DNA of 61,683 nucleotides from a virus (IMGVR_UViG_3300045988_126295:1-61683); one strand, 5' to 3'. Counted from the stretch's first letter, positions 117 through 57,531 are shown. Notes: a model not told the origin generated them from the letters alone. Program-made: numbers and translations.

Positions 117-302
117 TTAAACATTTTTATTGTCCGCAACCGGAGATGTCTTTTCTCGTTTTTCAGGAATCTCGCGTTTTTCGGAGGATTTAGGGGCGCC
201 TTCCTCAATGGAAATAAGCCCCATTTCCTTCCTTATTCGGTTTTCCTGAATGATCTTATCTACTTCCAGTTGACTACCTCGTATAATTATAACCTTATCC
301 AT
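117..302 (-). CDS. Hypothetical small protein downstream of capsid gene
   Basis: 61 aa. Its ATG (302..300) overlaps the capsid TAA by 1 nt (TAATG coupling). Lys/Glu-rich tail. Confidence 0.55.
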   Translation of the reverse strand: MDKVIIIRGSQLEVDKIIQENRIRKEMGLISIEEGAPKSSEKREIPEKREKTSPVADNKNV

Positions 303-1870
303 TAGGCAGCAACTTTAATGGCAGTTATCACATCGGCAATATTACCGTATGTAAATGCAGCCGGGTTGTAAACAGGCATCTGAACCTCTTCCTGTGCAAT
401 GAGGACAACAGTATTGCGGAGCTTTGTTTCCACATCTTCTGCAAACTCAACGCTAAGATTGCTCCAGTCGACCAGAGAAGCTCCGTTTGTCATATCTCCT
501 GCAAAATACTTGCCCGGGTTGATCTTCGTTGTTTCAATAATAGGTCTTCCGGAAATATACTTGACACCGTTAACGGTAGTAACAAGGCCGAGAGACCGTC
601 CGGATGTATCTTTTGCCGTTTCTGCATCGAATACGGTAGACGGGTTAAGCGCAATGAACGAAGGCGTGTATTCCGCATAGGTCATGATTGCGAAGATAGC
701 ATTGATTGCATCGCCGATATTAGGAGATACAACAGAATTGAACAGGTTGTTCTTAACTGTGAATGTGACAGCGGATGTCGCATCAGCTACGGCAGCGTAT
801 GCATAGTCAACAACAATCTTTCTGTCATTCATCTTATGAACAACATAAGTAGAGTTGAAACCTTCAACGGAAGAACCTGCAAACGTAATCTTTTGACCGT
901 CCATGATTTCAGGCTGTGCTTCTGTAAACTCAACAATGGACTGTTTGCCGCCATTGTAAGTGCTTACCGACTTAACAGAACCCTTAGCGCCGGTTACCAC
1001 GTCTTTGCTTATTATATTTTCTGCCGGAAGAATATCTTCGTAGTTTGCAATACCTTTCAGGTTATCGCCTTGTCCGTCACCGAACATGATTTGGAAATCC
1101 TCAGCCATTCTAACCCAAGAGGTAAGACGGTTCATAAGCCATGAGCGTACATAGATACGAGACTTAAGCAATCGCTTGCTCAACGGAACATAAGTACCAA
1201 TGCGGCACACGCCAACGGTCTGCTCCTTGATCTTGAATGAAGATTCAGGAAGTCTTCCGTTCTCTGAAACAGCAGCAGCGTTTCTGTCAAGATCGTAGAT
1301 CTGCGTAAATGTGATTGTAGGATATGCAGGGTCTCCCTGGTCTACGGTCATGATGTCGCGAATGTGCGCTCCTTCATTGATCTTAGTTACAACAAGGCTG
1401 CTTTGACGAGTGATTAGCTTGTCTCCGGCATAGTTATTAGTCATGCTGACCGGGTCTGTCACATCTTTCAAATCAATGTCAAAGCGGCCTGAACTCTTTG
1501 TTTTCCCGTCCAAGAAGTCTTTAAACTTCTCTGAATCCAAGAACTCATCAATCTTTTTGCCAAGATTGTTAGAGTTTCCGTTTACGTTAAAGCCCTTTGC
1601 CTTCAACACTTCCAGCTGTTTTGACAACTCTTTGATTTCTTCTTTGAACTCGCCCAGTTCCTTAACAGCAAGACCAACCTTGCCATCTTCGTTTAGGGCC
1701 TTAAGCTGCTCATCTACGCTTTTCATTTTCTCGTTGAATGAACTTTCAGAGATAAGCCCCTTGAGAAGCTCCTCCACCGTATCATTCACCTTTTTTTGAA
1801 TTGTACCAAGAGTTTGCTTTTCCTCCAATGTCAATTCGTTTTCTTTTTTTGCAAATTCAATCAAATTCAT
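302..1870 (-). CDS. Major capsid protein (HK97-like, with N-terminal coiled-coil delta-type segment)
   Basis: 522 aa, immediately after the prohead protease in the order terS-terL-portal-protease-capsid. The first ~100 aa are a coiled coil (EELLKGL..., KELSKQLEVLKAKG). Confidence 0.8.
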   Translation of the reverse strand: MNLIEFAKKENELTLEEKQTLGTIQKKVNDTVEELLKGLISESSFNEKMKSVDEQLKALNEDGKVGLAVKELGEFKEEIKELSKQLEVLKAKGFNVNGNSNNLGKKIDEFLDSEKFKDFLDGKTKSSGRFDIDLKDVTDPVSMTNNYAGDKLITRQSSLVVTKINEGAHIRDIMTVDQGDPAYPTITFTQIYDLDRNAAAVSENGRLPESSFKIKEQTVGVCRIGTYVPLSKRLLKSRIYVRSWLMNRLTSWVRMAEDFQIMFGDGQGDNLKGIANYEDILPAENIISKDVVTGAKGSVKSVSTYNGGKQSIVEFTEAQPEIMDGQKITFAGSSVEGFNSTYVVHKMNDRKIVVDYAYAAVADATSAVTFTVKNNLFNSVVSPNIGDAINAIFAIMTYAEYTPSFIALNPSTVFDAETAKDTSGRSLGLVTTVNGVKYISGRPIIETTKINPGKYFAGDMTNGASLVDWSNLSVEFAEDVETKLRNTVVLIAQEEVQMPVYNPAAFTYGNIADVITAIKVAA

Positions 1871-1882
1871 TTCTTCTAATTA

Positions 1883-2839
1883 TTATATTAAACCTTTAAT
1901 AGCGAGTCCCTCCAATGAAAAAGTGCTTTTGCGGCTTTCTTCTTGGTGAGTGCCCTCCGGCGGCTCTGTATTCTTGTTTATGAAACTCTTATAAATCCTT
2001 GCATAGCATTTAGGACACCTTACATAAGCGGCAAGTTCTTCGATGCTTTTCTTTGACGATACGATATTAAGAACCTGTTCCTGTATCTCCGGTTTAAGCT
2101 TTGCCATTTCCGCAGACACTACATCCTCTGCTATCCAACGTGTATAATTCCCTACACTGTCCAATACTTGGTTTTCGAATGTCTCTTCCGGCACACTATT
2201 GTAATCAAAGGAAAGCCCGCAATGAGGACACGTCACAATATCCTGCCCGGATAATGCCTTTTCTACCAAACTTAAATTCATGTCTAATTCTTTTAATTTA
2301 TCATCGGAATAACGCATCGTAAGAGCTTTTTTAAGGAAACCTATATGCTCCTGAATTGTCTGCTTGTCTGCGTTCTTAATATCAATAAGAAAGGTTTGCG
2401 GATTGGCTCCCCATGATGATAAGGTTGAATATTCCCACAAAGACCACTCTTTTACAATTCTTCTATCTTTATCGTCTCTCTTTATAGCCTTTACCCCGAT
2501 AGAGTGTTCAAGGGTCTTTCCGTATTCTGCGTAAAGTTTGTAGTCCTCCAGCACATCTCGTCCTATCTGTTTTTTTAAATTGATAGCACCTGTCATAACA
2601 AGGTTTCCGTCAATCTCTTTACCCTCTATCGGACATCCGAGCAGAATGCCTCTGTCATGATTATACAGCCATTTAACCCTGCTGAAGTTTTCTTTCAACG
2701 TCTTATTGAAAGAACCTTTAGCCGATATATCACCATCCGCATCCTGAATGCCTATTCCGTTTACAGCGACAGTTACAATGCCTTTCTCGTCAACATCGTT
2801 CGTCCTTGTCTTACATGTTATGTCTCTAAGCTGCTCCAT
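1883..2839 (-). CDS. Prohead serine protease (HK97 / S78-like) with C-terminal zinc-ribbon
   Basis: 318 aa. The N-terminal half has the prohead-protease pattern (DADGDISAKGSF..., WLYNHD, LEHSIGVKA). C-terminal CPHCG...CPKC. Lies between portal and capsid. Confidence 0.75.
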   Translation of the reverse strand: MEQLRDITCKTRTNDVDEKGIVTVAVNGIGIQDADGDISAKGSFNKTLKENFSRVKWLYNHDRGILLGCPIEGKEIDGNLVMTGAINLKKQIGRDVLEDYKLYAEYGKTLEHSIGVKAIKRDDKDRRIVKEWSLWEYSTLSSWGANPQTFLIDIKNADKQTIQEHIGFLKKALTMRYSDDKLKELDMNLSLVEKALSGQDIVTCPHCGLSFDYNSVPEETFENQVLDSVGNYTRWIAEDVVSAEMAKLKPEIQEQVLNIVSSKKSIEELAAYVRCPKCYARIYKSFINKNTEPPEGTHQEESRKSTFSLEGLAIKGLI

Positions 2840-4202
2840 TGCTATTTGATTTTGTGTTACCTGAAAAAATAATACCTTTGATTCTCTCCACTTCCTGATC
2901 GCTCATTTCCAATATGAGCTTGTCGTATAAAGGGTTTGAAACCTTTGATTCGCCTATCTGTGCCCGCCAATCATTAAGGGTTATTACCCCGCTAAGAAAC
3001 TCGTTTTTACATTTTACCGAGATAATGTTTAAAGTCTCTTGTCTCTCTTTATTTCCTGATTGCAAGGCATCCACGTCTGAATAATCCACATCTAAGTACA
3101 AACCGCTGTTTTCAAGTCCTAAGAATCGGGTAAGGCTTCTTGCGAAAGATTTAGCCTCCGGGATAACGATGTTGTAGTAGACGCTTCTTTCCGCTGTTTG
3201 CTGATTGTTGAAAGTGCTATTGTCCTTTCTTGGCACAAGCTGCGCAGGTATAGAGAACGCACCGGCTATTGATATGGCATCCTGCAACGTCTCGTCAAAC
3301 GGTTGCAATTCCTGAATACTCATAGAGGTTCGAATAAAGTCCGTATCTGTATCTATTATTGCTACCGGATATTTATCTTCTCCTAATCCGTACACAGTAT
3401 TGTATTCTTCGCGGATATTCTTTTTCTCGTCAGGAGTTAGAGCGACTGTCCCGGTTTCATCTTTCTTTCTTGATACAATGATGCCGAGAGCGCCTCTCTT
3501 GGTGTATATAACATTCCTTGCTTCATACACAGATATAAGATTGGATATAGGCTTTATCTGTGATACAAGCCTGCTTTGTCCCTTGAGGTTACAGGTAAAG
3601 GTATTTACATTAGGCTCCTTCACATGAAGAACAGTTTCCGGCGGCATATCATCCATAATACCGGAATAAGACAGTCTGTAATATTGGATTATATCAGATA
3701 CACTTGCCGGAGAAAACAAGGGAGCATTGTTGTATGCTACAATATCAACGCTGCCGGATGGAAGGACCCAATAATCATCGCACCTTTTCCATAGTTCTTT
3801 TTGCGTTTCTGAAAACACAGATGCTTTGATAAATGAGTTACCTGTCAGAAATTTATATAGAAAGTGAAGTGATACGAACTCATCAAATGATTGAAGTGCG
3901 TTTGGCTGTGTCAAGAACTTGTTTATGCTATCATTGTTGAATACGACTGAATCGTCCTTTGTTGATTTTAGCATAAAATTACCCTTGACAATCTTGTCTA
4001 CCAAATATCTTACCGGGAAAAACACTTCCGGCACAGATTCGTATAGGGTTATGAAGTTACCGGAGGCTACATAAGGAGAGGCGATGTCATATAGCGTGTT
4101 GCGCACATATCCGTAGACATTCCCCTGTTTGTCGCTGATTAAATCTTTGGACTTGCCTCCAATAGATAAATGAAAATTCTTTGTCTCAAAAGATAAATTC
4201 AT
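2826..4202 (-). CDS. Portal protein
   Basis: 458 aa between the large terminase and the protease. ATG verified. Size and position fit HK97-family portals. Confidence 0.75.
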   Translation of the reverse strand: MNLSFETKNFHLSIGGKSKDLISDKQGNVYGYVRNTLYDIASPYVASGNFITLYESVPEVFFPVRYLVDKIVKGNFMLKSTKDDSVVFNNDSINKFLTQPNALQSFDEFVSLHFLYKFLTGNSFIKASVFSETQKELWKRCDDYWVLPSGSVDIVAYNNAPLFSPASVSDIIQYYRLSYSGIMDDMPPETVLHVKEPNVNTFTCNLKGQSRLVSQIKPISNLISVYEARNVIYTKRGALGIIVSRKKDETGTVALTPDEKKNIREEYNTVYGLGEDKYPVAIIDTDTDFIRTSMSIQELQPFDETLQDAISIAGAFSIPAQLVPRKDNSTFNNQQTAERSVYYNIVIPEAKSFARSLTRFLGLENSGLYLDVDYSDVDALQSGNKERQETLNIISVKCKNEFLSGVITLNDWRAQIGESKVSNPLYDKLILEMSDQEVERIKGIIFSGNTKSNSNGAA

Positions 4203-4206
4203 GCTT

Positions 4207-4244
4207 AAATAAAAAAGGCAACAACCATATACATGATTATCGCC
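4207..4244 (-). terminator. Intrinsic terminator at the end of a short leader, 4 nt before the portal ATG
   Basis: Minus strand: GGCGATAA / TTGTTGCC 8-bp stem (two G-U pairs) followed by UUUUUUAUUU. Confidence 0.55.
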
Positions 4245-4308
4245 TTTGGTCTTTTAGTTCAACAATGGGTAGTATGTTACTTAACATACCAAAGGCTATT
4301 ATTTTATG

Positions 4309-4340
4309 CAAATATACTAACTAACATATTGAATAGCAAA
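4309..4340 (-). promoter_or_regulatory. Bacteroidota-type promoter (-33 TTTG / -7 TATATTTG) between terL and portal
   Basis: Minus strand TTTG (4340..4337), 20 nt spacer, TATATTTG (4316..4309). Full match to TTTG-N19-21-TAnnTTTG. Confidence 0.6.
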
Positions 4341-4384
4341 TAAAAAACGAACTATTTTTATTTAGACTAAGTAAAAATAACAAT

Positions 4385-6400
4385 TTAAAAAAAATTCTTT
4401 CTTATATACTTGGACATGGCGGATATGATGTTAATAGCAGAGGCGCTGTCCTTACCGTTATAGTCCAAAAAGTCATTCATAAATAACAGATAATCAGCAT
4501 TACTTTCATAACCGCCTGAAAACCTTACTTTCTTCCTGATAAAGTCTTTGTTAGCCTCTATTCTAAGCTTGTAATCGGATGAAGAAGATATTACCTTTAT
4601 TTCCCTTAATTCCCTCAACTCCCTTACTGTATGGAAGAATGCTTTTTCGCACTCGAATATAACAAGACCCTTTGCGTTTTCAACACATCTGAATAACATA
4701 TCGCTGTCATAGCAGCCATGATATACTACATATTTTATATCTATGAAATCATGTATAACGCACGACACAGCGGTCATCATTCCGAAATTATCAGGAATAA
4801 CGTATAACAACTCGCTTCCGGCTGCATCCGCATTAAAGTACAACACATCATCTTCGGATTGAACACTTCTTTTCCTCTTGAGGGAGAATCTTGTATATTC
4901 ATCTTTGAACACGTCTACAACAACGTATCTAAATGTGTCCGTACAATGTCCAAACTCCTCATAGCTTTGCCCGGTTTCCTTATTTTTAATCCTTTGCTTT
5001 AAAATAGCCCCGTTGGCATCTTTCTTCACGTTCTCATAGTCTCTTATTGACTTCTTACAAGAATCGTCTATACCTATATTTATTCCGTATAGATTACCGG
5101 ACAATATGGCATTTATAAACTCACCCGACAAAGCGACTGAAGGATTAGAGGCGGGAACACAGTCATTAACTACAAACCTCTGTTCCAAGCACTCAATAAA
5201 CTTATCCAAAAATGACCTCTTTTCGTCATCTATTGTATTACCGCTTCTTGTAGTGGCATCCCCATGAACAAATAACACATCTGCATACCCGATAGACGTA
5301 AGCCAGTCCCTTGTCATTGACGCTGCCTGAGTAACGGTATTATTAGGATCTTCCGCGCATATTTCGTGTATCTGCCTGAAATTGTTGTCGTTTTTTTGCC
5401 ATAGCGTTACGGTAATATATGGAAGTACGTTATTATCAACCGATATATGAATGGGTATTTTAGAATCATACGGATAGTTCCCCCTATGTTTTCCTGCATC
5501 AAATGCGTACAGGTATTCTCCGCCAGTCCTTATGCTACCCCAGTCTCCGAGAGCGTAAATGCGGTAATAGTTATAATCTCTATTTTTATCCTTTTCAAAA
5601 TCGGCAACCGCCTGCCTGTCATAAAAACCATAAGTGCCGTCAGGAGAACCGACAACCCAAAAATTATTAAGATAGGTAGACTTTAATATCAACGTGTCAG
5701 GCGCATGCACTTCCTCTTCTCCTGTACGTGGGTTGGTTATTATGCGGGGAGAGTTAATAAGTTTTTTGGTTATTGTAGTGTATTCCTTTGGCAATACATC
5801 TCCTGTCAATGTGTTTTTAATACCATACAGATAATTGTCGACCTCGTGCAAGTCCTCTTTGTCGAACACATTCTTCTTTATCCAGTGCTCCTCTGATATG
5901 GGGTTAAACATGGATATTATCTTTTGGCCCAAACGGCCTCTTAAACGTTTTTTTATCTGCTTGAAGTCAGCTTCGGCAAAATCACTCAACTCTTCGCATA
6001 CGACAAACTGATAACTTTCAAGACCTTTTATCTTTTCGGGATCATCAAGACCGCTAAATGTGATATATGAGCCGTTGAAGCATTTAATAGCGTTTTCCCT
6101 ATAATCAAATGCTTTTGAAACGCCGAGACTGTTAGCTGCTTCCTTAAATGCTTTATATATGCTGTCCGCTATGGTTGCACCAGTCTTCCTATAAACACGA
6201 GTATTATATCCGTCAGATAAGCAGAACAGTAATATAGCCTGTGCAACCGAAAAGGATTTGGACGAAGAAGAGCCACCGATCAAAAAGATAAACCGGATAT
6301 CATCATCTTTTAATGATTTTTTTAAATGATGAAAGTTTGGATTGAATTTCCGATAATCAAATGTGATCTTTTCATTTTTACTCATCTCCTGTATCAACAT
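4385..6400 (-). CDS. terL: Terminase large subunit
   Basis: About 671 aa. Walker-A-like FLIGGSSSSKSFS near the N-terminus, with a long ATPase plus nuclease-sized body. First ATG at 6400 (the track start at 6403 is TTG). Overlaps the terS stop. Confidence 0.85.
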   Translation of the reverse strand: MLIQEMSKNEKITFDYRKFNPNFHHLKKSLKDDDIRFIFLIGGSSSSKSFSVAQAILLFCLSDGYNTRVYRKTGATIADSIYKAFKEAANSLGVSKAFDYRENAIKCFNGSYITFSGLDDPEKIKGLESYQFVVCEELSDFAEADFKQIKKRLRGRLGQKIISMFNPISEEHWIKKNVFDKEDLHEVDNYLYGIKNTLTGDVLPKEYTTITKKLINSPRIITNPRTGEEEVHAPDTLILKSTYLNNFWVVGSPDGTYGFYDRQAVADFEKDKNRDYNYYRIYALGDWGSIRTGGEYLYAFDAGKHRGNYPYDSKIPIHISVDNNVLPYITVTLWQKNDNNFRQIHEICAEDPNNTVTQAASMTRDWLTSIGYADVLFVHGDATTRSGNTIDDEKRSFLDKFIECLEQRFVVNDCVPASNPSVALSGEFINAILSGNLYGINIGIDDSCKKSIRDYENVKKDANGAILKQRIKNKETGQSYEEFGHCTDTFRYVVVDVFKDEYTRFSLKRKRSVQSEDDVLYFNADAAGSELLYVIPDNFGMMTAVSCVIHDFIDIKYVVYHGCYDSDMLFRCVENAKGLVIFECEKAFFHTVRELRELREIKVISSSSDYKLRIEANKDFIRKKVRFSGGYESNADYLLFMNDFLDYNGKDSASAINIISAMSKYIRKNFF

Positions 6401-6908
6401 CAAAAAGCATACTCTTCAAATCAATCTTCGTAGGCTCGTCAAATCCGAGCATCTTACATATACGTTCGATAGCCTTTATCTTATCATAAAGTTCTATCTT
6501 CACGTATTCAACATCCACAATTTCCGGAGCGTCACTTGTTCCGATATTTTTTTTCAATATCTTGGTGGATATACTTTTTATCGCTGATTTCTCTTTGGCA
6601 GACAGTTTATCAAATTCTTTGCGTTCTATCCAAGTATTGTGCATATCCGCAATAGTAGAGAATGCAATCCCGGATAATTCTTGCAGAATACGCTCTTTGG
6701 TTATATCTGACTTGTTTTTTTGCTCTTTCTGCAACTCCTTGACCCTCGCCGCAATATCGTCCTGATTTAACAATTGAAAAGCCTTGTTGTTAACAGTTTC
6801 CGCTTTCATTTTCCCACACGAATAGGCACGACGATAAGCATCGGAAGCATTACCGCTTTCAATGTAATAATTGCAGAAGTTTTCTTGTTTGATTGTAAGT
6901 CCTTTCAT
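6378..6908 (-). CDS. terS: Terminase small subunit
   Basis: 176 aa. The N-terminal KQENFCNYYIESGNASDAYRRAY motif is typical of phage small terminases. Lies directly upstream of terL. Confidence 0.75.
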   Translation of the reverse strand: MKGLTIKQENFCNYYIESGNASDAYRRAYSCGKMKAETVNNKAFQLLNQDDIAARVKELQKEQKNKSDITKERILQELSGIAFSTIADMHNTWIERKEFDKLSAKEKSAIKSISTKILKKNIGTSDAPEIVDVEYVKIELYDKIKAIERICKMLGFDEPTKIDLKSMLFDVDTGDE

Positions 6909-8054: not shown

Positions 8055-9254
8055 TTATTTTTTATTTACGTAATCTATTACCTTCCGATTAGCTTCATCC
8101 ACCTTCTTATTATCAAATCGTATGTATATATCCGTTGTAGTGCTATTTGCCCAACTGTGCCCAAGAGCATGCGCTATTACCTCTTTGGGAATGTCGAGCT
8201 CAGATGCTATTGTGGCCCAAGTATGACGCGTCCAATAAGAGGATAAATCAGGAAACAGAGGAGTTCTTATCTTTTTCCCGCCTAATCCTTTTCGTTCAAG
8301 TTTCCCGATCTGCTTTAGTCCTATCCCCATTCGATGCAGGAAGTCCTTGTAATTCCTGTATTCATCCATTATATTGAGAAGATAGCTTTTCCCTTTATAT
8401 TTTTCTATTATATCCATAGCCTCCGGTTCTACTTTTACGCTGTATAATTTCCCCGTTTTAGCCCTTTTGTATTCAAAGCGACCATTTACCAATGCGGAAT
8501 GTTTTGCGTTAAACAAATCGGCTGCATTTACCCCTATAAGGTAAAACATAAGCATAAATATATCTCTATATCTTATCTGATACTCCTCACATGGGTAATC
8601 TCTTAATAATCTAAGCTGTTCTACTGTGAGGCTGCGTTTCCGGGTTTCCTCTTTTTTTATTGAAAATCTTCTGAATGGATACAATGTCGTGTACTCTTCA
8701 TCAATGGCATAGTTGAATACGGTGCGTATGTTCCGTAAATGAATAGCGTAGGCGTTAACTTTCATCGTCTTTGCCATCCACGCTTCAAAATTTTCAAGCC
8801 ACGATTTATCCATGCTTTCAAACGTACAGCGGCTATCGTATTCTTTAATCTTGTTCCTTGTGGTTGTGTATACGGTCTTGGTACCTTGATTATTCTTTTT
8901 CGACATAAATTCATCAAGATAGTATAAGAATGTCTTTTCGTTTTGGGTCTTATTACTTATGGCTTCTTCGATCATTTTTTTTAATGATGCATCCGTTGTT
9001 GATTTCAACTTACCCTGTTGCTCCAACGTTAATATTACAGTTTCCGCCTTGTTTATTATCCCGCGAGCGACAATGTTTCTTGGTTTATAATTTTGTGCCC
9101 GTACGGAATACTCATTTCCAGCCCACTCTTTATCCGATGCGCTTAATTGTGTAGCTATCATTATTTGTTTATTATGGAACACGTTCAACTTTAGAGGATA
9201 AGTCCCGTCTTTTTTTTGCCTTCTTTTATCAAGGTAGAATTTAACTGTTGCCAT
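8055..9254 (-). CDS. int: Tyrosine site-specific integrase
   Basis: 399 aa. N-terminal arm-binding type VKFYLDKRRQKKDGTYPLKL. C-terminal catalytic TRHTWATIA...HALGH...TTDIYI. Adjacent to attP. Confidence 0.9.
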   Translation of the reverse strand: MATVKFYLDKRRQKKDGTYPLKLNVFHNKQIMIATQLSASDKEWAGNEYSVRAQNYKPRNIVARGIINKAETVILTLEQQGKLKSTTDASLKKMIEEAISNKTQNEKTFLYYLDEFMSKKNNQGTKTVYTTTRNKIKEYDSRCTFESMDKSWLENFEAWMAKTMKVNAYAIHLRNIRTVFNYAIDEEYTTLYPFRRFSIKKEETRKRSLTVEQLRLLRDYPCEEYQIRYRDIFMLMFYLIGVNAADLFNAKHSALVNGRFEYKRAKTGKLYSVKVEPEAMDIIEKYKGKSYLLNIMDEYRNYKDFLHRMGIGLKQIGKLERKGLGGKKIRTPLFPDLSSYWTRHTWATIASELDIPKEVIAHALGHSWANSTTTDIYIRFDNKKVDEANRKVIDYVNKK

Positions 9255-9410: not shown

Positions 9411-9416
9411 CAGAAG

Positions 9417-9463
9417 AGCGGAAGACGGGGCTCAAACCCGCGACCCTCAGCTTGGAAGGCTGA
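9417..9463 (-). other. attP core: copy of the 3' 47 nt of a tRNA-Gly(UCC) gene (anticodon stem to discriminator)
   Basis: Reverse complement reads TCAGC-CTTCCAA-GCTGA GGGTC GCGGG-TTTGAGC-CCCGT CTTCCGC-T. There is no 5' half. It lies 160 nt from the integrase. Confidence 0.65.
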
Positions 9464-9870: not shown

Positions 9871-10302
9871 TTACGCACTCTTGGTTGAAGCCTTTCTTTC
9901 GCTTAGCCCAAGCTGTTCTCGCATAATTTCGTTCTGCCCTATTAACTTATCTATCTCGGACTTCATTCTCTCTATTTCGGCCTTTAAATTAGCAATCTCC
10001 TTATCCTTACTTGTTATCGTATCCTTGTACATCTTCTGAGATTGCGATGCAATGTTTTCAGATGTGCTCTTTTCTGTGTCAAGAAACATATCCCCCTTTC
10101 CGGTAAGGATGTAGTTGGCGTTGACTTCGGGGTAGGCTTCGCAAAGCTGAACTATTATATCACCAGATATAGCCTTAGTAACCCCTTTTTTGTAATGGGA
10201 TATTTTAGCTTGTGCGTTTTTCACGCCACAATCTCTTTCAAGCACGTATGGCCCAATATTTAGACCTTCCATAACCTCTAAAAATCGTTCACTTGTAGTC
10301 AT
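9871..10302 (-). CDS. Repressor-like HTH DNA-binding protein with C-terminal coiled coil
   Basis: 143 aa from the ATG at 10302 (the track start at 10416 is TTG inside the promoter). HTH-like N-terminal region VKNAQAKISHYKKGVTKAISGDIIVQL. Divergent from the operator-bearing early promoter. Confidence 0.55.
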   Translation of the reverse strand: MTTSERFLEVMEGLNIGPYVLERDCGVKNAQAKISHYKKGVTKAISGDIIVQLCEAYPEVNANYILTGKGDMFLDTEKSTSENIASQSQKMYKDTITSKDKEIANLKAEIERMKSEIDKLIGQNEIMREQLGLSERKASTKSA

Positions 10303-10339
10303 AGTATAATATTTTAAATTATTTATATTCAAAAAAAGT

Positions 10340-10369
10340 TTTGTACTATAAAATATTATAGTATCTTTG
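10340..10369 (+). promoter_or_regulatory. Early promoter with embedded operator: TTTG - ACTATAAAATATTATAGT - TATCTTTG
   Basis: TTTG at 10340..10343, 16-bp near-palindrome core at 10346..10361, -7 box at 10362..10369. Confidence 0.6.
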
Positions 10370-10446
10370 CACCCGTTGCAAGTCAAGAAGCAACAGATGC
10401 AGATTAAATTAAACAATCGCCCTAACGTGGGCCTCTCTATATGGAA

Positions 10447-11434: not shown

Positions 11435-11908
11435 ATGAGTAAATATATAGCATATACAGACGGAGGATGCCAAAACACATCAGTGTACGGGGAAGGCGGT
11501 TCAGCCTATCTGATAATCCATAAGGGAGAAGTTGTAAAAACCGCTTCAAAAGGTTTTCTTTATACAACCAGCAACCGTATGGAGATGCTTGCTATTATAA
11601 GTGCCGTTTGTTCCGTCCCGGAAGGTTCTGATTTAATCGTATATTCAGACAGCAAATATGCAATCAACGTCTTTTCCGGTATTTGGAAGCCGAAGAAAAA
11701 TAGAGATTTGATAATCAAATACAACGAGCGTGTAAAGGCTCTTAGCTCTGTATATTTCCGGTGGATAAAAGGACACAATGGAGACAAATACAATGAATTG
11801 GTTGATTCTATGTGTACAAACTCCATTAATGAGATAGTCCAATTACACAACCTCCCAAATGACAGGTTTAAAAAAGTGAAAGTACAGCTATCCTTTAAAT
11901 TTAATTAA
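11435..11908 (+). CDS. Ribonuclease HI
   Basis: 157 aa. AYTDGGC..., TSNRMEMLAI, VYSDSKYAI, KGHNGDKYNELVD match the RNase H D-E-D-(H)-D signature order. Confidence 0.85.
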   Translation: MSKYIAYTDGGCQNTSVYGEGGSAYLIIHKGEVVKTASKGFLYTTSNRMEMLAIISAVCSVPEGSDLIVYSDSKYAINVFSGIWKPKKNRDLIIKYNERVKALSSVYFRWIKGHNGDKYNELVDSMCTNSINEIVQLHNLPNDRFKKVKVQLSFKFN

Positions 11909-13670: not shown

Positions 13671-13883
13671 ATGGGACGCTCAAAAAACACCGGAAAGGTA
13701 GAGCCGGTAAACAAACTATGGCTCTCTGCCAAAGAAGCAATGGCATACTTAGGATGTGGAGAAAAACTGTTGGAAAAACTAAGGAATAATGCCGAAATAT
13801 CATTTTCAAAATACGACAGGCGTACTATATGGTACGAACTGAGAAGTCTTGAAAGATTCATAGAAAAAAACCGCGTTGTGTGA
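13671..13883 (+). CDS. Excisionase-type (MerR-like) HTH DNA-binding protein
   Basis: 70 aa. LWLSAKEAMAYLGCGEKLLEKLRNNAEI fits the small phage excisionase / HTH_17 pattern. Confidence 0.55.
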   Translation: MGRSKNTGKVEPVNKLWLSAKEAMAYLGCGEKLLEKLRNNAEISFSKYDRRTIWYELRSLERFIEKNRVV

Positions 13884-13893
13884 ATAACGCTCC

Positions 13894-14006
13894 TTCCTCT
13901 TAGCTCAACGGTTAGAGCATCGCTAAGGTTATTTGTTCGTAAGGGTTTAGCGTTTCCGGTCTGTTCCGGTTAGCGATTGTTGCACGTTCGATTCGTGCAG
14001 AGGAAG
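13894..14006 (+). ncRNA. tRNA-like element with canonical acceptor, D and T arms but a 43-nt insertion where the anticodon loop should be
   Basis: Acceptor TTCCTCT/AGAGGAA (7 bp perfect). TA plus GCTC-AACGGTTA-GAGC. Stem TCGCTAA (13920-26) / TTAGCGA (13970-76). Variable TTGTT. T arm GCACG-TTCGATT-CGTGC. Discriminator G. Confidence 0.6.
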
Positions 14007-14400
14007 CAAGATACACCGTTCTTTGACGTGTTGAATGTGAAACAAAGTTTGAATATCTGATATTCGGATTTGTTTCAATATAACTAAGGATTACGTATAG
14101 CGGAAACGCCGAAACTACGTATAGGCTTGGTTATCGTGATTGTTTCTCGCACCGAAATGTCCTACGGTAGAGAAGTATGCGGTTTGGGCGCCCGTATCGC
14201 GAGAAACAACAGGTCATAAAGACAACATAAGCGTCCGATATAGTCTTAAATCGGTATAAAGTATGCGGTGGGAATGAAAGGCGGCCGTACACGCTTATTA
14301 TATATATTCTCGTGGCTCACCATAAGGCGAGTGGTAAGGCTTAACATCGGAACGCTCACGAGAACTGAATTATCCTATGGATGAATTATTTGTTTAGGTT

Positions 14401-14432
14401 GCCGGGCGGTCTGAGAAGATAGTCCGGTTTTT
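14401..14432 (+). terminator. Intrinsic terminator closing the structured RNA locus
   Basis: CCGGGCGGTCT-GAGA-AGATAGTCCGG hairpin (about 10 pairs, GAGA tetraloop) followed by TTTTT. Confidence 0.55.
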
Positions 14433-14592
14433 AGTTGGAAATCATCAATAACAATATAAATAACCGCAATAAGGTAGTGCTATTACTGTACTAAAAGCCG
14501 CGAGATAAACGAAGTGCGCACCGTTTTGATTTAACCTTGTACAGGCGGTTCAATAGAGAAAATAGTTATTCAATAATAATAGATTACAATAT

Positions 14593-15486
14593 ATGAATTA
14601 CGGAATGCCCTACATGGGTTCAAAATCAAAAATTGCAAAATGGATTGTGGATATGCTTCCTGCGGCCCATACATGGGTTGAACCATTTGCCGGAGGATGT
14701 GCAGTAACTCATGCGGCCATCCTTTCCGGAAAGTATAAAAAATTTATCATTAACGACATAACAGATAGCGCAAAAGTATTCGTTGATGCTATAAATGGTA
14801 AGTTTAAAAACGAAAATAGATGGATAAGCCGAAGCGATTTTTTAGAACTCAAAGATGAAGATGCTTATGTTCGATTGTGTTTTTCTTTCGGTAACGATCA
14901 AAAAACATATTGCTATTCACGAGAAATAGAGCCTTATAAACGTGCATTTCATTATGCAGTTATGTTTAATGATTTTAAGCCGTTTGAGGATCTCGGGATT
15001 AAATTAAATATAAGCAAAACGTTTAACAGTGATTATGAAAGAAGGATTCATATAAAAAGGCATCTTATTGCAATAAGAAAAGACAAACACGCTGGATATT
15101 TGCAGAGTTTGGAGAGGTTGGAGAGGTTGCAGAGGTTGCAGAGTTTGCAGAGTTTGGAGAGGTTGCATCCCCTGCAATTAGATTACAGGGATGTTCCGAT
15201 TCCAAAAAACGATTACATTGTGTATTGCGATCCGCCATACGTGAACACAAATGCTTATCTAAGCAGTTTTAATCACGATGAATTCTACAAATGGGCTTTA
15301 AGTATTAAGAATTTGTTTATTTCCGAATATGAAATGCCCGAACCTTTTAAGAGAATAGAGATGAGGAGGAAGACGTGTACTTTCTCTGCGTTAAAAAATG
15401 ATACGAAGAAAGAGGAAGGTATATGGGTTAACAAAAAATACGCAGAAAGAAACACAAGCCTGTCAATGCCTATTTTCAATAAGTAA
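14593..15486 (+). CDS. dam: DNA adenine methyltransferase (Dam / D12 class)
   Basis: 297 aa. MPYMGSKSKIAKWI, EPFAGGCAV (motif I), YCDPPYVNT (motif IV DPPY). Confidence 0.85.
   Translation: MNYGMPYMGSKSKIAKWIVDMLPAAHTWVEPFAGGCAVTHAAILSGKYKKFIINDITDSAKVFVDAINGKFKNENRWISRSDFLELKDEDAYVRLCFSFGNDQKTYCYSREIEPYKRAFHYAVMFNDFKPFEDLGIKLNISKTFNSDYERRIHIKRHLIAIRKDKHAGYLQSLERLERLQRLQSLQSLERLHPLQLDYRDVPIPKNDYIVYCDPPYVNTNAYLSSFNHDEFYKWALSIKNLFISEYEMPEPFKRIEMRRKTCTFSALKNDTKKEEGIWVNKKYAERNTSLSMPIFNK
15100..15171 (+). repeat. In-frame 9-bp tandem repeat (TTGSAGAGK, 7 units plus 1 degenerate) inside the methylase gene
   Basis: ttgcagagt ttggagagg ttggagagg ttgcagagg ttgcagagt ttgcagagt ttggagagg ttgcatccc encodes LQS LER LER LQR LQS LQS LER LHP. 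Confidence 0.9.
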
Positions 15487-15494: not shown

Positions 15495-15731
15495 ATGGAA
15501 AATGAACTTGAAGAATTATATAAGGAACTGAACAAAGTTAAGTCCTCCCCATTGGCGTATCTTCCTGAATACGGATATTCTTCAAAGGAGGAAATTATTC
15601 AGCTTATAGAGGAAGATATAGAGGAGTTGCGCACAGAGATAGAATGTAGTCAATACGATTACACACCTGATGAGCTTGAAGAAGAAAGAATGAGCCTTTG
15701 TGTCAGTCAGGGGTTATCAAGATATTGTTAA
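15495..15731 (+). CDS. Hypothetical acidic protein
   Basis: 78 aa, Glu-rich. ATG verified. Confidence 0.55.
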   Translation: MENELEELYKELNKVKSSPLAYLPEYGYSSKEEIIQLIEEDIEELRTEIECSQYDYTPDELEEERMSLCVSQGLSRYC

Positions 15732-15750
15732 ACTAATAAATATAGAAATA

Positions 15751-16605
15751 ATGGGTTTAGAAAATTATGAAGTGCTTCCGGTAGAAGCACAAGATGTTCA
15801 AATTGTACAGGTAGATGCGGTTGAACGCGCAAACGTAGATAGTCAAGTTGCAACAGCAAAACAATATCCAAGAAGTATCAAAAGGTGCGTTGACAATTCT
15901 ATTGCTATGGCTACAATGGATTCTGAAACGGCTCAAAGTTGCGGGTATGCGTTGCCTCGCGGTGGAAAGCCTATTACCGGGCCGTCCGTTCACCTTGCAA
16001 AGATTATTGTTTCCAATTGGGGAAATATGAGGACAGAAGCTAAGGTAGTTCAAATCACCGACAAGCAAATAATCAGTAGAGGCACCTGCTGGGATTTGGA
16101 AGCTAACGTAGCTTCTGCCTTTGAGGTGAGAAGAAGCATTATAGGTAAAAATGGAAATAGATTCAGCGATGATATGATTACCGTTACCGGAAATGCAGCA
16201 AACAGCATTGCATACAGAAATGCGGTGTTTGCCGTTGTTCCTAAAGCGGTGGTTGAAAAGGTATATAAGGCCGCACAAAAATTTATCACCGGCGATCTAT
16301 CCGATGAAGAAAAAATAATAAAAAGAAGAAAAGGTGCAATAGACTTCTTGTTTGATGAATACGGTATTACAGAGGAGGAGACAATTAAATTGTGCGGCAA
16401 ACAAACAATCAATCAGATTAAGGCGGATGAAATAGCACTGCTTCTTGGAATTGTTCAGTCACTGAAAGACGGAGATACTACCGTTGATGAACTTATGAAG
16501 CCAATCAGAGGAAGCAAGGAAGCAAAAAAAGAAGCTATGAGAAAGGCAATGGAACCGGTAGTTGATAAATCAACAGGTGAAATCTTTAACCAGCCAGCGC
16601 AATGA
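15751..16605 (+). CDS. Putative single-strand annealing protein (recombinase partner of the YqaJ-type exonuclease)
   Basis: 284 aa from the ATG at 15751 (the track start is GTG at 15700). Translationally coupled (ATGA) to the downstream exonuclease. Family not resolved by eye. Confidence 0.5.
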   Translation: MGLENYEVLPVEAQDVQIVQVDAVERANVDSQVATAKQYPRSIKRCVDNSIAMATMDSETAQSCGYALPRGGKPITGPSVHLAKIIVSNWGNMRTEAKVVQITDKQIISRGTCWDLEANVASAFEVRRSIIGKNGNRFSDDMITVTGNAANSIAYRNAVFAVVPKAVVEKVYKAAQKFITGDLSDEEKIIKRRKGAIDFLFDEYGITEEETIKLCGKQTINQIKADEIALLLGIVQSLKDGDTTVDELMKPIRGSKEAKKEAMRKAMEPVVDKSTGEIFNQPAQ

Positions 16606-24043: not shown

Positions 24044-24625
24044 ATGAAAGAGGTATGGAAAGACACAAAAGGAGTGTTTGGGTATCAAGTTAGTAATTTT
24101 GGACGAGTTAGAAGCATTTTTAGTAGATGGGGGAAACGAGCGTATCCAAGGATAATGAAAGGTTCTATAGATTCTCATGGATATGTTCAGGTAACAATTA
24201 GCATTAATGGGGAAAGGAAACTAATGTTTGTGCACAGGCTTGTTGCAAAAGCATTTATACCAAACCCTTTAAATTTAGAGATGGTAAATCATAAAGACGA
24301 GAACCCTTTAAATAATAATGTTGATAACTTGGAATGGTGTACAAGGTCTTACAATAACTCCTATGGGCATGCGACTGATAGTTATCGAAAAAAGATTTGT
24401 TGCATACATGGAGAAACTGCTTACGTTTTCAAATCAATAAAAGATGCTTCAATTAAAATGAATATTCCAACAACATCTATTTTCAACTCATTAAAAAGAC
24501 GTTCGCCAATGGTTAGCAGAGGTCTTATGTTTTATTATGTTGGTAAAAACGAAATCCCCTCTTTCGATGAGATACTCGAAGCCAACAAGGATGTACTGGA
24601 ACGGATTAAAGAGAAAGGAGATTGA
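24044..24625 (+). CDS. HNH homing endonuclease (NUMOD4 plus HNH_3 type)
   Basis: 193 aa. EVWKDTKGVFGYQVSNFGRVRS (NUMOD4), GYVQVTISINGERKLMFVHRLVAKAFIPNP...VNHKDENPLNNNVDNLEW. Confidence 0.85.
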   Translation: MKEVWKDTKGVFGYQVSNFGRVRSIFSRWGKRAYPRIMKGSIDSHGYVQVTISINGERKLMFVHRLVAKAFIPNPLNLEMVNHKDENPLNNNVDNLEWCTRSYNNSYGHATDSYRKKICCIHGETAYVFKSIKDASIKMNIPTTSIFNSLKRRSPMVSRGLMFYYVGKNEIPSFDEILEANKDVLERIKEKGD

Positions 24626-56677: not shown

Positions 56678-56808
56678 GCCAATACATATTAATAAGTAGT
56701 ATCGTATAAAATTAAGATATTGCGCCTACCGAGTGGAGATACGGAAACGCCTCCGACATTAATCTTATGGATTTGTTGACAGCTCGTAGTAGGTGCATTT
56801 TTTTTGTT

Positions 56809-57327
56809 ATGTCAACAAATCCTATTCAAGTCCTAAAACAAACAGAATTGCTTGGACATCAATTCACAGTTTACGGAACCGCTGAAAACCCATTATTCTT
56901 AACAAAGGAAGTTGCAGATATAATAGAATATTCTGCAAGCAATTCAAGTAAACTAACCAATCTTGTAGATAGAGACGAAAAGGTTCGTAACATTATTACG
57001 ACCCCCGGTGGAAATCAAGAAGTTTGGCTGCTAACAGAGGACGGTTTGTATGAGGTCTTATTTCAATCCCGAAAGCCAATCGCCAAAGAATTTAAGAAAG
57101 GTGTTAAGGAAATTCTAAAGACCATCCGCAAAACCGGCGGATACATCGCAACCAAACAGGATGACACTCCCGAAGAAATCATGGCACGTGCACTCATAGT
57201 GGCACAGGAAACAATCAAAAGAAAAGAAGAAAGGCTAAAGCAGCTTGAAGAAAAGAACGCCAAGCTAAAGCCCAAAGCCGACTTTGCCGAAGCCGCTTTC
57301 AAAAAAAATATTATTTTCGTTTGGTAA
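56809..57327 (+). CDS. Bro-N domain antirepressor-type protein, truncated at the start of a KilAC-like domain
   Basis: 172 aa from the ATG at 56809. LLGHQFTVYGTAENPLFLTKEVADIIEY...WLLTEDGLYEVLFQSRKPIAKEFKKGVKEIL (Bro-N). Ends ...KPKADFAEAAFKKNIIFVW*. Confidence 0.7.
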   Translation: MSTNPIQVLKQTELLGHQFTVYGTAENPLFLTKEVADIIEYSASNSSKLTNLVDRDEKVRNIITTPGGNQEVWLLTEDGLYEVLFQSRKPIAKEFKKGVKEILKTIRKTGGYIATKQDDTPEEIMARALIVAQETIKRKEERLKQLEEKNAKLKPKADFAEAAFKKNIIFVW

Positions 57328-57350: not shown

Positions 57351-57531
57351 CAGTGCGACAGTTTTATATACATATTTGGATTGGGGATTTTTTATGCCCT
57401 ATATTGAACTACTGCCCAAAATATAAGCAGAGGTTTCTCCGTACATATTCGCCCCAAGCCGATATGGAACTGTCGCAAGTTGGAGAAATTCTCTGCTTTC
57501 TTTATTTATTAACTTTTAATTTTCATTGTTT

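What the first reader, a model, noticed from the sequence alone, without database searches (positions are those of the whole stretch)
13894..14006. tRNA-like element with perfect acceptor, D and T arms but no readable anticodon loop
The element has a 7-bp perfect acceptor stem (TTCCTCT / AGAGGAA). It also has TA plus a canonical D arm (GCTC-AACGGTTA-GAGC), a 5-nt variable region and a canonical T arm (GCACG-TTCGATT-CGTGC). Where the 7-nt anticodon loop should be, 43 nt lie between TCGCTAA (13920-26) and TTAGCGA (13970-76). That insertion contains a CCGG/CCGG hairpin (13956-69) and a second TTAGCG copy (13947-52), which offers a mutually exclusive pairing with the same 5' strand.

I found no 5-bp stem with a 7-nt loop carrying U33, so no anticodon can be assigned. 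The 3' end reads G-CA, not CCA.

Possible interpretations, all inference:
- a tRNA with a small intron
- an RNase P/Z processing handle for the downstream structured RNA
- a tRNA mimic or decoy against tRNA-targeting defence nucleases
Basis: partly seen in the sequence, partly recalled or inferred. Interest (0 to 1): 0.7.

Follow-up and report, generated by a model that had tools for sequence, protein, structure and literature searches.

The report
Phage tRNA-like RNA with replaced anticodon loop
A temperate gut Bacteroidota phage carries a gene with a complete, evolutionarily maintained tRNA body whose anticodon loop is replaced by a 43-base insert, so it is most likely a non-decoding tRNA-shaped RNA rather than a working tRNA.

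Summary
The element at 13894-14006 (+) has perfect acceptor, D and T arms. 43 nt sit between TCGCTAA and TTAGCGA.

It belongs to a family that I call E1. E1 occurs in about 245 human-gut phage or metagenome loci, in four types (W, L, M, S). The tRNA body is under selection. Pair 2-71 runs U-A, U.G, C-G. Pair 31-39 is U-A or C-G. The tertiary 15-48 pair is A-U or G-C.

ARAGORN in intron mode calls tRNA-Arg(CCG). The call is uninformative, because it still calls a tRNA in 400 of 400 versions with the insert shuffled. No single excision gives a canonical anticodon arm in the window's type. Only the rare M type allows one. Type S carries an unrelated insert.

The alternative TTAGCG pairing is not conserved. 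The missing CCA is normal for this host. The real attP is a tRNA-Gly fragment at 9416-9461.

A second scaffold in sister phages, E2, is tRNA-Leu-like. It keeps its arms while its middle is swapped.

Best reading, at confidence about 0.5: a non-decoding tRNA-shaped scaffold. RNase P and RNase Z would cut it out of the early transcript, and it would present its insert. A spliced tRNA-Arg is the main rival. No function has been shown.

The parts
13873..13890 (+). Leader hairpin GCGTT-GTGTGAAT-AACGC. It lies 3 nt upstream of the tRNA-like 5' end and is preceded by an A-run. The stop codon of the upstream HTH_17 gene (13881-83) lies in its loop.
   Evidence: It belongs to the conserved 148-nt block 13866-14013, which is kept while both flanks are swapped. 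Some M-type loci have a different stem that still pairs (GTTG-TGTAAAA-CAAC), and other M loci lack the hairpin. On the minus strand it reads as a terminator-like hairpin followed by T7. That it protects the 3' end of the upstream mRNA after RNase P cleavage is my inference.
13894..14006 (+). E1 (type W), the tRNA-like RNA gene. It has a class-I tRNA body with the anticodon loop replaced by an insertion.
   Evidence: The family was found and 51/52. Pair statistics are and the de novo consensus fold.
13894..13918 (+). 5' body: acceptor 5' strand 13894-13900, U8 and A9 at 13901-02, and the D arm 13903-13918 (GCTC-AACGGTTA-GAGC, with G18 and G19).
   Evidence: Pair 2-71 occurs as U-A, U.G and C-G across types. 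The D stem is kept, with a G.U in one variant and U10/U25 in type M. Position 15 covaries with position 48.
13920..13925 (+). 5' strand of the extended 'anticodon' stem, TCGCTA. It pairs with TAGCGA at 13971-76. In this type A13926-T13970 can add a seventh pair.
   Evidence: The stem is 6 bp in types W and L and 5 bp in type M (TCGCC/GGTGA). Pair 31-39 changes U-A to C-G and pair 29-41 changes G-C to G.U.
13927..13955 (+). 5' part of the insert, GGTTATTTGTTCGTAAGGGTTTAGCGTTT. It is conserved in sequence and predicted to be largely unpaired. It contains the second TTAGCG copy.
   Evidence: Types W, L and M share GGTTAYT..TTCG..AARGTTTAG, with small indels. No consistent helix is predicted. No significant complementarity to anything else in the window was found. 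The TTAGCG alternative pairing is not conserved.
13956..13969 (+). Hairpin CCGG-TCTGTT-CCGG. In the unspliced RNA it can stack on the stem.
   Evidence: Both TCCGG copies are invariant in types W, L and M, while the loop varies in sequence and length: TCTGTT, TAATTT, TCTGTGTATT. Within-type polymorphisms fall in the loop, at 13960 T>C and 13963 G>A.
13964..13970 (+). TTCCGGT, the 7 nt that ARAGORN reads as an anticodon loop (U33, CCG, G37) after removing 13926-13963.
   Evidence: The 7-mer is conserved in types W, L and M and absent in type S. The call is uninformative by the shuffle control. It is canonical only in type M.
13971..14006 (+). 3' body: stem 3' strand TAGCGA 13971-76, variable loop TTGTT 13977-81 (G46, U48), T arm 13982-98 (G53, TTCGA, C61), acceptor 3' strand 13999-14005, and discriminator G14006.
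   Evidence: U48 pairs with A15, and the pair is G15-C48 in types L and M.
14007..14013 (+). Trailer CAAGATA, the end of the conserved block. No CCA is encoded.
   Evidence: Downstream sequence diverges into alternative modules right after this point. Host tRNA genes likewise lack CCA.
14014..14440 (+). Context: a non-coding island of structured RNA modules that ends in a terminator-like hairpin plus T-run at about 14400-14432.
   Evidence: The plus strand folds to -129.8 kcal/mol (z -2.7) against -100.2 for the minus strand. Hairpins covary with an alternative allele found in L011, L016 and L141. There are no Rfam hits.

Best explanation
The element is a transcribed, non-decoding tRNA-like RNA. 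It is a full class-I tRNA body that folds into the L shape, with the anticodon loop replaced by a 43-nt insert.

Proposed mechanism:
1. The element is made as part of the rightward early transcript.
2. Host RNase P cuts at T13894. A 3' tRNA-processing nuclease cuts after G14006. In hosts whose tRNA genes lack CCA this is usually RNase Z, which was not checked in this host. The CCA-adding enzyme then finishes the 3' end.
3. These cuts do two things. They punctuate the transcript, leaving the upstream mRNA with a protective 3' hairpin and freeing the 5' end of the downstream structured RNAs. They also release a stable 113-nt RNA that the cell treats as a tRNA.
4. That RNA displays a conserved segment of about 30 nt, predicted to be largely unpaired, plus a CCGG hairpin where the anticodon should be.

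In effect this would be a natural version of the laboratory 'tRNA scaffold', with the insert as the working part.

What is shown: the anatomy, the selection on the tRNA fold, the non-canonical anticodon arm, the modular position, and the swapping of inserts in relatives.

What is inferred: transcription, the processing cuts, stability, and that the insert rather than the body is the effector. The target of the insert is unknown.
For: Body under tRNA-type selection:
- 97% of cells pair in the cloverleaf, against 40-48% when the 3' partners are slid.
- Pair 2-71 occurs as UA, UG and CG. Pair 31-39 occurs as UA and CG.
- The tertiary Levitt pair 15-48 is A-U in types W (59 loci) and S (2 loci) and G-C in types L (174) and M (9).
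- U8, A14, G18G19, A21, G46, G53-TTCGA and C61 are all present.

Not a decoder:
- No tRNA is found by default ARAGORN or by Rfam at E<=10.
- No single excision gives a canonical arm in types W, L or S.
- Stem length differs between types, 6 bp against 5 bp.
- The hairpin tip varies between 6 and 10 nt.
- CGG is the rarest Arg codon, 36 of 583.

Scaffold logic:
- Type S keeps the body but carries an unrelated 27-nt insert.
- In sister phages a tRNA-Leu-like scaffold, E2, keeps its acceptor, D and T arms while its middle is replaced by unrelated sequence. The whole elements are 104 nt (two different versions) or 188 nt long.

Punctuation:
- The conserved 148-nt block 13866-14013 sits between flanks that are exchanged among phages.
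- It always lies about 8 nt before one of at least four alternative non-coding modules.
- It has the same orientation as the early operon.

Feasibility: tRNAs with foreign RNA grafted into the anticodon stem are processed and accumulate in E. coli. This rests on my knowledge of the tRNA-scaffold method of Ponchon and Dardel (2007), not on a test here.
Against: - No expression or end-mapping data are available.
- The sequence diversity is shallow, with four types, so covariation rests on few independent events.
- The scaffold idea does not say what the insert does. No target complementarity above chance was found in the window.
- TTCCGGT is conserved next to the 3' stem strand in three types, and type M becomes a perfectly canonical tRNA-Arg(CCG) after a 43-nt excision. 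That fits an intron origin or an intron function.
- Related phages L139 and L140 lack the element, and L139 still has part of the downstream RNA. The element is therefore not obligatory for that RNA.
Confidence: 0.5

Rival explanations
1. It is an intron-containing tRNA-Arg(CCG). The 34-43-nt insert on the 5' side of the anticodon loop is removed by an unknown host or phage activity, and the mature tRNA decodes CGG.
For: - ARAGORN -i calls Arg(CCG) in types W, L and M.
- TTCCGGT (U33, CCG, G37) is invariant next to the 3' stem strand, while the insert upstream of it has indels and substitutions.
- Type M gives a fully canonical 75-nt tRNA after one 43-nt excision.
- The whole tRNA body is under selection.
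- There is a precedent: 'enigmatic introns' in tRNAs of Lak megaphages, which infect Prevotella, also Bacteroidota (PMC6784885).
- Many other IMG/VR tRNA genes carry 40-60-nt insertions and still have a normal anticodon loop.
Against: - The ARAGORN call is made for 400/400 (W) and 304/400 (M) shuffled inserts.
- Types W and L, which make up about 95% of loci, need a 6-bp anticodon stem, and no canonical solution exists for them.
- Type S has no such loop.
- Position 20 is U or C, not A20.
- CGG is the rarest Arg codon in a genome of 38.6% GC.
- The insert is 38-43 nt, too short for a group I intron. There is no bulge-helix-bulge geometry and no ribozyme family hit.
- No RNA ligase, kinase or splicing endonuclease was found among the window ORFs scanned.
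- No insert-free allele was seen among about 245 loci.
- The conservation of the first TCCGG copy is equally well explained by a structural hairpin.
Confidence: 0.2
2. It is a tRNA mimic or decoy. The tRNA body itself is the effector. It would bind, and so titrate or block, a host factor that recognises tRNA shape, such as an anticodon nuclease or a tRNA-targeting toxin. The altered anticodon arm would make it uncleavable and non-decoding.
For: - Selection acts on the L-shape determinants, including the 15-48 tertiary pair.
- The anticodon arm is the part that is altered.
- The element sits in the early operon of a temperate phage, where counter-defence genes are often found.
- Phage tRNAs that escape tRNA-targeting defences are established in other systems (my knowledge).
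Against: - No tRNA-targeting system has been identified for this host.
- A pure body mimic would not need the insert sequence and the CCGG hairpin to be conserved.
- It does not explain why E2 scaffolds swap their middles.
Confidence: 0.15
3. It is a decaying tRNA gene. An insertion disrupted it, it has no function now, and it persists only as a conserved linker at which mosaic phage modules recombine.
For: - The block lies exactly at mosaic breakpoints.
- The insert makes it non-canonical.
- One variant breaks a stem pair, G13922>T in L016.
- Related phages lack the element.
Against: - All four types carry an insert, so the insert predates their split.
- Since that split the body has accumulated compensatory and wobble-preserving changes, plus a covarying tertiary pair. 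That is not expected of a pseudogene.
- All but one of the stem changes seen within a type keep pairing. The U10/U25 clash of type M is a between-type difference.
Confidence: 0.08
4. It is the phage attachment site, attP, built on a tRNA gene.
For: Integrases of this kind often target tRNA genes, and the element looks like a tRNA.
Against: - Integrated copies (L382, L385) join host DNA at a different place.
- The window carries the 3' 46 nt of host tRNA-Gly(TCC) at 9416-9461 on the minus strand, next to the integrase gene.
- The homology with the integrated copies, read outward from the integrase, ends inside that host tRNA gene.
Confidence: 0.01

Closest known systems
'Enigmatic introns' in tRNA genes of Lak megaphages of Prevotella (Devoto et al. 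2019, PMC6784885)
   Same: Both are phages of Bacteroidota from the gut. Both have oversized tRNA genes with a sequence interrupting the anticodon loop. In both, the insert is near-identical across cohorts, there is no known splicing mechanism, and bacterial-mode tRNA finders miss them.
   Different: The Lak example I read has an insert of about 90 nt after position 37 and leaves a canonical tRNA when removed. Here the insert is 27-43 nt and lies on the 5' side of the would-be loop. Its removal does not give a canonical arm in the window's type. The host phage is a 62-kb temperate phage, not a 540-kb megaphage.
Engineered tRNA scaffold for recombinant RNA
   Same: A full tRNA body with foreign RNA grafted in place of the anticodon loop. 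Processing and stability are borrowed from the tRNA pathway. Different inserts can occupy the same body, as seen for E1 type S and for the E2 variants.
   Different: That is a laboratory construct. A natural phage equivalent has not, to my knowledge, been described, and it is not shown here experimentally.
mascRNA and MALAT1-type tRNA-like processing elements
   Same: A cloverleaf that lacks a functional anticodon loop, is cut by RNase P and RNase Z, and thereby defines the ends of an adjacent structured non-coding RNA.
   Different: mascRNA is eukaryotic and lies at the 3' end of the long RNA. Here the element is bacterial-viral and lies 5' of the structured RNAs. Processing has not been tested.
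Bacterial YrlA (Y RNA-like) tRNA mimics (Chen et al. 2014, PMC4201824)
   Same: A non-coding RNA in bacteria, and in some phages (my knowledge), with D-arm-, T-arm- and acceptor-like modules that tRNA enzymes recognise.
   Different: In YrlA the RNA ends lie at the anticodon-equivalent end, the acceptor is closed by a loop, and the RNA works with the Ro-like protein Rsr. Here the ends are at the acceptor as in a real tRNA. There was no Rfam hit to any family at the element, and no rsr-type domain turned up among the ORFs scanned.
Group I introns in bacterial tRNA anticodon loops
   Same: An interruption of a bacterial-type tRNA gene within the anticodon loop.
   Different: Those introns are about 200 nt or longer and have a catalytic core. 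This insert is 38-43 nt and gives no Rfam intron or ribozyme hit.

Membership tests
Canonical elongator tRNA | 7-bp acceptor stem, 4-bp D stem and 5-bp T stem, with a T-loop reading TTCRA | tested here: met
   The sequence was read directly. 97% of cells pair across 26 distinct relatives.
Canonical elongator tRNA | Tertiary-interaction nucleotides: U8, A14, G18G19, A21, R15-Y48, G46, G53, C61 | tested here: met
   All are present. Pair 15-48 covaries, A-U in types W and S and G-C in types L and M.
Canonical elongator tRNA | 5-bp anticodon stem closing a 7-nt loop with U33 and a purine at position 37 | tested here: not met
   43 nt lie between the stem strands. No single deletion restores the arm in types W, L or S.
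Canonical elongator tRNA | Recognised by standard tRNA finders or models | tested here: not met
   Default ARAGORN finds 0 genes. Rfam reports no tRNA hit, either at gathering score or at E<=10.
tRNA-Arg(CCG) | Anticodon CCG in a canonical loop | tested here: inconclusive
   ARAGORN -i proposes it with a 6-bp stem, but it calls a tRNA for 400/400 shuffled inserts. The arrangement is canonical only in type M.
tRNA-Arg(CCG) | A20 in the D loop, the main ArgRS identity element in E. coli (my knowledge) | tested here: not met
   By my numbering of the D loop, position 20 is U in type W and C in types L, M and S.
Intron-containing tRNA, archaeal/eukaryal type | Intron at 37/38 or within a bulge-helix-bulge motif | tested here: not met
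   The insert lies on the 5' side of the proposed loop. One side is an unpaired stretch of about 30 nt and the other is 1 nt, so there are no paired 3-nt bulges.
Intron-containing tRNA, archaeal/eukaryal type | A splicing endonuclease and an RNA ligase are available | tested here: inconclusive
   None was found in the 45 window ORFs scanned against Pfam/PHROGs. The host genome could not be examined.
Group I intron in tRNA | Catalytic core of about 200 nt or more (P3-P9) | tested here: not met
   The insert is 38-43 nt, and there is no Rfam intron or ribozyme hit at E<=10.
tmRNA | tRNA-Ala-like domain with G3.U70, a tag reading frame and pseudoknots | tested here: not met
   ARAGORN -m finds 0 genes. 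Pair 3-70 is C-G, and the insert has no reading frame.
Phage attP on a tRNA gene | Sequence identity with the host tRNA at the prophage junction | tested here: not met
   The junction maps to 9416-9461, which matches host tRNA-Gly(TCC).
tRNA-like processing or scaffold RNA (mascRNA-like, tRNA-scaffold-like) | tRNA body kept while the anticodon loop is lost or replaced, and next to other non-coding RNA | tested here: met
   body; anticodon loop; adjacency; swapped inserts.
tRNA-like processing or scaffold RNA (mascRNA-like, tRNA-scaffold-like) | Cleavage by RNase P and RNase Z, and accumulation as a stable small RNA | not testable with these tools
   This needs RNA-seq, Northern blots or in vitro cleavage.

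The most novel reading that the evidence does not exclude
Temperate phages of gut Bacteroidota use tRNA bodies as natural expression scaffolds. A constant acceptor, D and T framework, maintained by selection, ensures processing and stability. The position of the anticodon arm carries interchangeable functional RNA inserts. Several such units punctuate an early non-coding RNA operon. The family found here (E1, types W, L, M and S), the tRNA-Leu-like E2 scaffold with 104-nt and 188-nt versions that differ only in the middle, and many other insertion-bearing tRNA genes in IMG/VR would be instances of one unrecognised strategy.
Probability: 0.3. Interest if true: 0.8.

Novelty: new variant of a known kind. 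Interest (0 to 1): 0.6.

Why it matters
Phage tRNA genes are usually read as codon-supply or anti-defence devices, and oversized ones are discarded as pseudogenes or labelled 'introns'.

Here a tRNA body is kept by selection although it cannot decode in any canonical way. Sister elements keep the body while exchanging the middle.

If the scaffold reading holds, three things follow:
- It would reveal a natural counterpart of a widely used RNA-engineering trick.
- It would give a handle on a whole non-coding RNA island in abundant human-gut phages.
- It would offer a testable explanation for the unexplained 'introns' of phage tRNAs.

If the intron reading holds instead, it would point to an unknown tRNA-splicing route in bacteria. 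Either outcome can be tested directly with small-RNA mapping in a lysogen.

Tried and rejected
- attP hypothesis: rejected. The true junction is the tRNA-Gly fragment at 9416-9461.
- Riboswitch-like alternative pairing through the second TTAGCG: rejected as a conserved feature.
- Asn-like GUU in the hairpin loop: rejected. The loop reads TAATTT in type L and is 10 nt long in type M.
- Known RNA families, including tRNA, tmRNA, ribozymes, introns and Y RNA: no Rfam hit at the element, in the window or in related loci.
- Host tRNA sharing the 3' half: the single genome-contig scan returned only two chance matches inside non-tRNA sequence and no prophage copy.
- BLAST of a 'spliced' version against phage genomes: only generic similarity of about 75% to tRNA-Arg(UCU) genes of coliphages, at E 0.05-7, driven by the D and T arms.
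- Plasmid collection: no match.
- Antisense target search for the insert within the window: only chance-level 9-11-mers.
- Search for an insert-free allele using the 5' half: it returned ordinary phage tRNAs (Arg-UCU, Thr, Lys, Asn and others). Only isoacceptor types were tabulated, so no orthologue was recognised and none is excluded. The isoacceptor origin of the body cannot be inferred from this.
- One search failed on a pattern-syntax error.
- Literature searches for spliced phage tRNA introns or natural tRNA scaffolds found only the Lak report and general tRNA-mimic papers.

Full report
**1. The observation**

The sequence at 13894-14006 (+) is exactly as described.
- A perfect 7-bp acceptor stem: TTCCTCT pairs with AGAGGAA.
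- U8 and A9.
- D arm GCTC-AACGGTTA-GAGC.
- A26.
- TCGCTAA at 13920-26 and TTAGCGA at 13970-76, with 43 nt between them.
- A 5-nt variable loop, TTGTT.
- T arm GCACG-TTCGATT-CGTGC.
- Discriminator G, followed by CAA.

Detection results:
- Default ARAGORN finds no tRNA in the window.
- Rfam finds no tRNA at the gathering score or at E<=10.
- The cloverleaf with an extended arm is the minimum-free-energy fold, -34.5 kcal/mol with z -2.4.
- With introns allowed, ARAGORN reports this one site and nothing else on either strand of 61.7 kb.

**2. Genomic setting**

The window is a complete temperate phage genome.
- Head and packaging genes are at 302-6908 (-). The ORFs at 302-1870 (capsid), 2826-4202 (portal), 4385-6403 (terminase large subunit) and 6378-6908 (terminase small subunit) pass Pfam's gathering score. 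The prohead-protease match of 1883-2839 scores 20.0 bits, just under the 21-bit cut-off.
- A Bacteroides-type tyrosine integrase is at 8055-9254 (-).
- A repressor-like gene is at 9871-10416 (-).
- A rightward early operon follows: a 273-aa protein, RNase H at 11435-11908, small ORFs, and an HTH_17/excisionase-like gene at 13671-13883.
- Then comes the element, followed by about 580 nt without ORFs.
- After that come a Dam methylase at 14593-15486, an ORF at 15700-16605 (PHROG family of unknown function; RecT-annotated in sister phages) and a YqaJ exonuclease.

The closest cultured relatives by terminase are Flavobacterium phages, at about 40% identity.

Integrated copies (L382, L385) show that the phage inserts into host tRNA-Gly(TCC), next to tRNA-Tyr, ribH and recF. 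The window carries the 3' 46 nt of that tRNA at 9416-9461 (-). The element is therefore not attP. The host's tRNA genes do not encode CCA, so the G-CAA end of the element is ordinary.

**3. The family (E1)**

Pattern scans of IMG/VR and of metagenome contigs recovered about 245 loci, all from human-gut samples. Some contigs were fetched twice, so the counts are of loci and not of independent genomes.

There are four types:
- W: 113 nt, the window's type, 59 loci.
- L: 110 nt, 175 loci.
- M: 116-117 nt, about 10 loci.
- S: 95 nt, 2 loci.

The element and a short leader and trailer form a 148-nt block, 13866-14013. This block is retained while both flanks are exchanged among phages. Two phages whose 273-aa early protein is 92-93% identical, L139 and L140, lack the element.

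**4. The tRNA body is maintained by selection**

In 26 distinct sequences, 97% of cells in the cloverleaf are paired. Only 40-48% pair when the 3' partners are slid by 1-3 columns.
- Pair 2-71 occurs as U-A (W), U.G (L) and C-G (M, S).
- Pair 31-39 is U-A or C-G.
- Most other stem changes keep pairing through wobble. The exceptions are U10/U25 in type M, a C1-A72 clash in one M variant (L355) and G13922>T in L016.
- The tertiary Levitt pair is A15-U48 in types W and S and G15-C48 in types L and M.
- RNAalifold recovers the acceptor, D, anticodon and T helices without guidance.

The diversity is shallow, so these are few independent events. They all point the same way: the RNA is required to fold as a tRNA.

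**5. The anticodon region**

Types W, L and M share an insert made of two parts.
- The first is a sequence-conserved stretch with no consistently predicted helix, GGTTAYT..TTCG..AARGTTTAG.
- The second is two invariant TCCGG copies that can form a 4-bp hairpin. The hairpin loop varies in sequence and length: TCTGTT, TAATTT, TCTGTGTATT.

The second TTAGCG copy, which offers the alternative pairing, reads TTAGTA in type L and TTAGTT in type M. That feature is therefore not conserved.

ARAGORN -i removes 13926-13963 and reads TTCCGGT as the loop of tRNA-Arg(CCG). It does the same in types L and M. Two controls show how little this means.
- With the body kept and the insert shuffled, ARAGORN still calls a tRNA in 400/400 (W) and 304/400 (M) trials.
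- I enumerated every single contiguous deletion and asked for position 26, a 5-bp stem, a 7-nt loop with U33 and R37, and a 4-5-nt variable loop. Only type M has a solution. Types W and L need a 6-bp stem.

Type S has an unrelated 27-nt insert with no CCGG and no TTCCGGT.

Further points against decoding:
- Position 20 is not A.
- CGG is the rarest arginine codon in the phage, 36 of 583 (2.7 per thousand) at 38.6% GC.
- No RNA ligase, kinase, splicing endonuclease or reverse transcriptase is encoded among the ORFs scanned.
- No ribozyme or intron family matches.

**6. A sister scaffold (E2)**

About 1 kb downstream in L-type phages lies a second tRNA-like gene, E2 (L141:11367-11471). It is not present in the window.
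- Its arms resemble tRNA-Leu (from memory of E. coli tRNA-Leu): acceptor TGCGACA/TGTCGCA, D arm GCG-GAATGGTAGA-CGY, T arm CCCGG-TTCGAGT-CCGGG.
- These arms are constant, but the middle is replaced by unrelated sequences.
- The whole elements are 104 nt (two different versions) or 188 nt long.
- ARAGORN forces three different 'anticodons' on the same body: His, Leu and Phe.

Together with E1 type S, this shows a pattern of constant tRNA framework with an exchangeable centre.

**7. The neighbourhood**

- The stretch 14007-14440 folds better on the plus strand, -129.8 against -100.2 kcal/mol.
- It contains hairpins that covary with an alternative allele found in other phages.
- It ends in a terminator-like hairpin.
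- At least four different non-coding modules begin about 8 nt after the element in different phages.
- Upstream, a hairpin at 13873-13890 lies 3 nt before the tRNA-like 5' end. It is conserved with a different but still pairing stem in some M loci and is absent in others.

**8. Interpretation**

The evidence fits best a non-decoding tRNA-shaped RNA.
- The tRNA-processing enzymes would cut it out of the early transcript.
- That would punctuate the transcript.
- It would also yield a stable RNA that displays the insert.

Transcription, the cuts and the role of the insert are all inferred. I put this reading at about 0.5.

The rivals are:
- A spliced tRNA-Arg(CCG), about 0.2. It is kept alive by type M and by the invariant TTCCGGT.
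- A body-based decoy, about 0.15.
- A relic, about 0.08.
- attP is refuted.

**9. Relation to known things**

The nearest published case is the 'enigmatic introns' of Lak megaphage tRNAs (PMC6784885). Functionally, the nearest analogues are mascRNA-type processing elements, bacterial YrlA tRNA mimics (PMC4201824) and the engineered tRNA scaffold.

The element fails the defining anticodon-arm test for a canonical tRNA. It also fails the tests for group I introns, bulge-helix-bulge introns, tmRNA and attP.

A generic scan shows that insertion-bearing tRNA genes are common in viral contigs. This is therefore a new variant within a poorly understood but already noticed phenomenon.

Noticed in passing
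window 9416-9461 (- strand): This is the real attP core. It is identical to the 3' 46 nt of a host tRNA-Gly(TCC) gene. In integrated copies the prophage sits next to host tRNA-Tyr(GTA), tRNA-Gly(TCC), ribH and recF. Neither host tRNA gene encodes CCA.
   Followed up: yes
L141:11367-11471 and variants in L229, L209 and L179: A second tRNA-like scaffold, E2, resembles tRNA-Leu. It has constant acceptor, D and T arms and a completely swapped middle. The whole elements are 104 nt (two different versions) or 188 nt long. It occurs in about 150 loci of sister phages and is absent from the window.
   Followed up: partly
window 14014-14440 (+): A non-coding island of structured RNA with no Rfam match. 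It includes repeated hairpins of the form AGTATGYRG...TTTGGGCG... that covary with an alternative allele (ATGCGG/CCGTAT against ATGATG/CATTAT). It also includes a 60-nt motif at about 14309-14366 that is conserved with compensatory changes in L141, and a terminator-like hairpin at about 14400-14432.
   Followed up: partly
window 14047-14068, flanked by GAAACAAA (14039-46) and TTTGTTTC (14069-76): The 22-nt centre of this hairpin is present as its exact reverse complement in L022 and L023. This looks like a small DNA inversion between 8-nt inverted repeats. The inversion moves the G.U-containing (better) hairpin to the other strand.
   Followed up: partly
IMG/VR loci L026-L125: Many unrelated viral tRNA genes carry 40-60-nt insertions between the D and T arms. 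One recurrent class has a hairpin plus YACAGCAA inserted in the 5' strand of the anticodon stem, followed by a normal anticodon loop (for example L043, L064, L087, L073). The E1 type S insert contains a similar TAACAAGCAG. Other classes include L044-like and L065/L088-like.
   Followed up: no
window 56720-56800 (+): c4-2 RNA (Rfam RF02944, 45.2 bits). Its 3' end overlaps the start of a Bro-N gene (56767-57327), which is followed by a KilA-N/ANT antirepressor gene (57526-58401). This is a P1-like antisense-RNA immunity arrangement.
   Followed up: no
L141:12656-12732: RT-17 RNA (RF03020, 41.5 bits), a motif that I recall being associated with reverse transcriptase genes. It lies about 2 kb downstream of the element in the L-type sister phage and has no counterpart in the window.
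   Followed up: no
window 24044-24625 (+) and 32049-32867 (-): Two free-standing HNH homing endonuclease genes (NUMOD4 plus HNH_3), which fit the strongly mosaic architecture of this phage group. The Dam methylase gene 14593-15486 is present in only some relatives.
   Followed up: no
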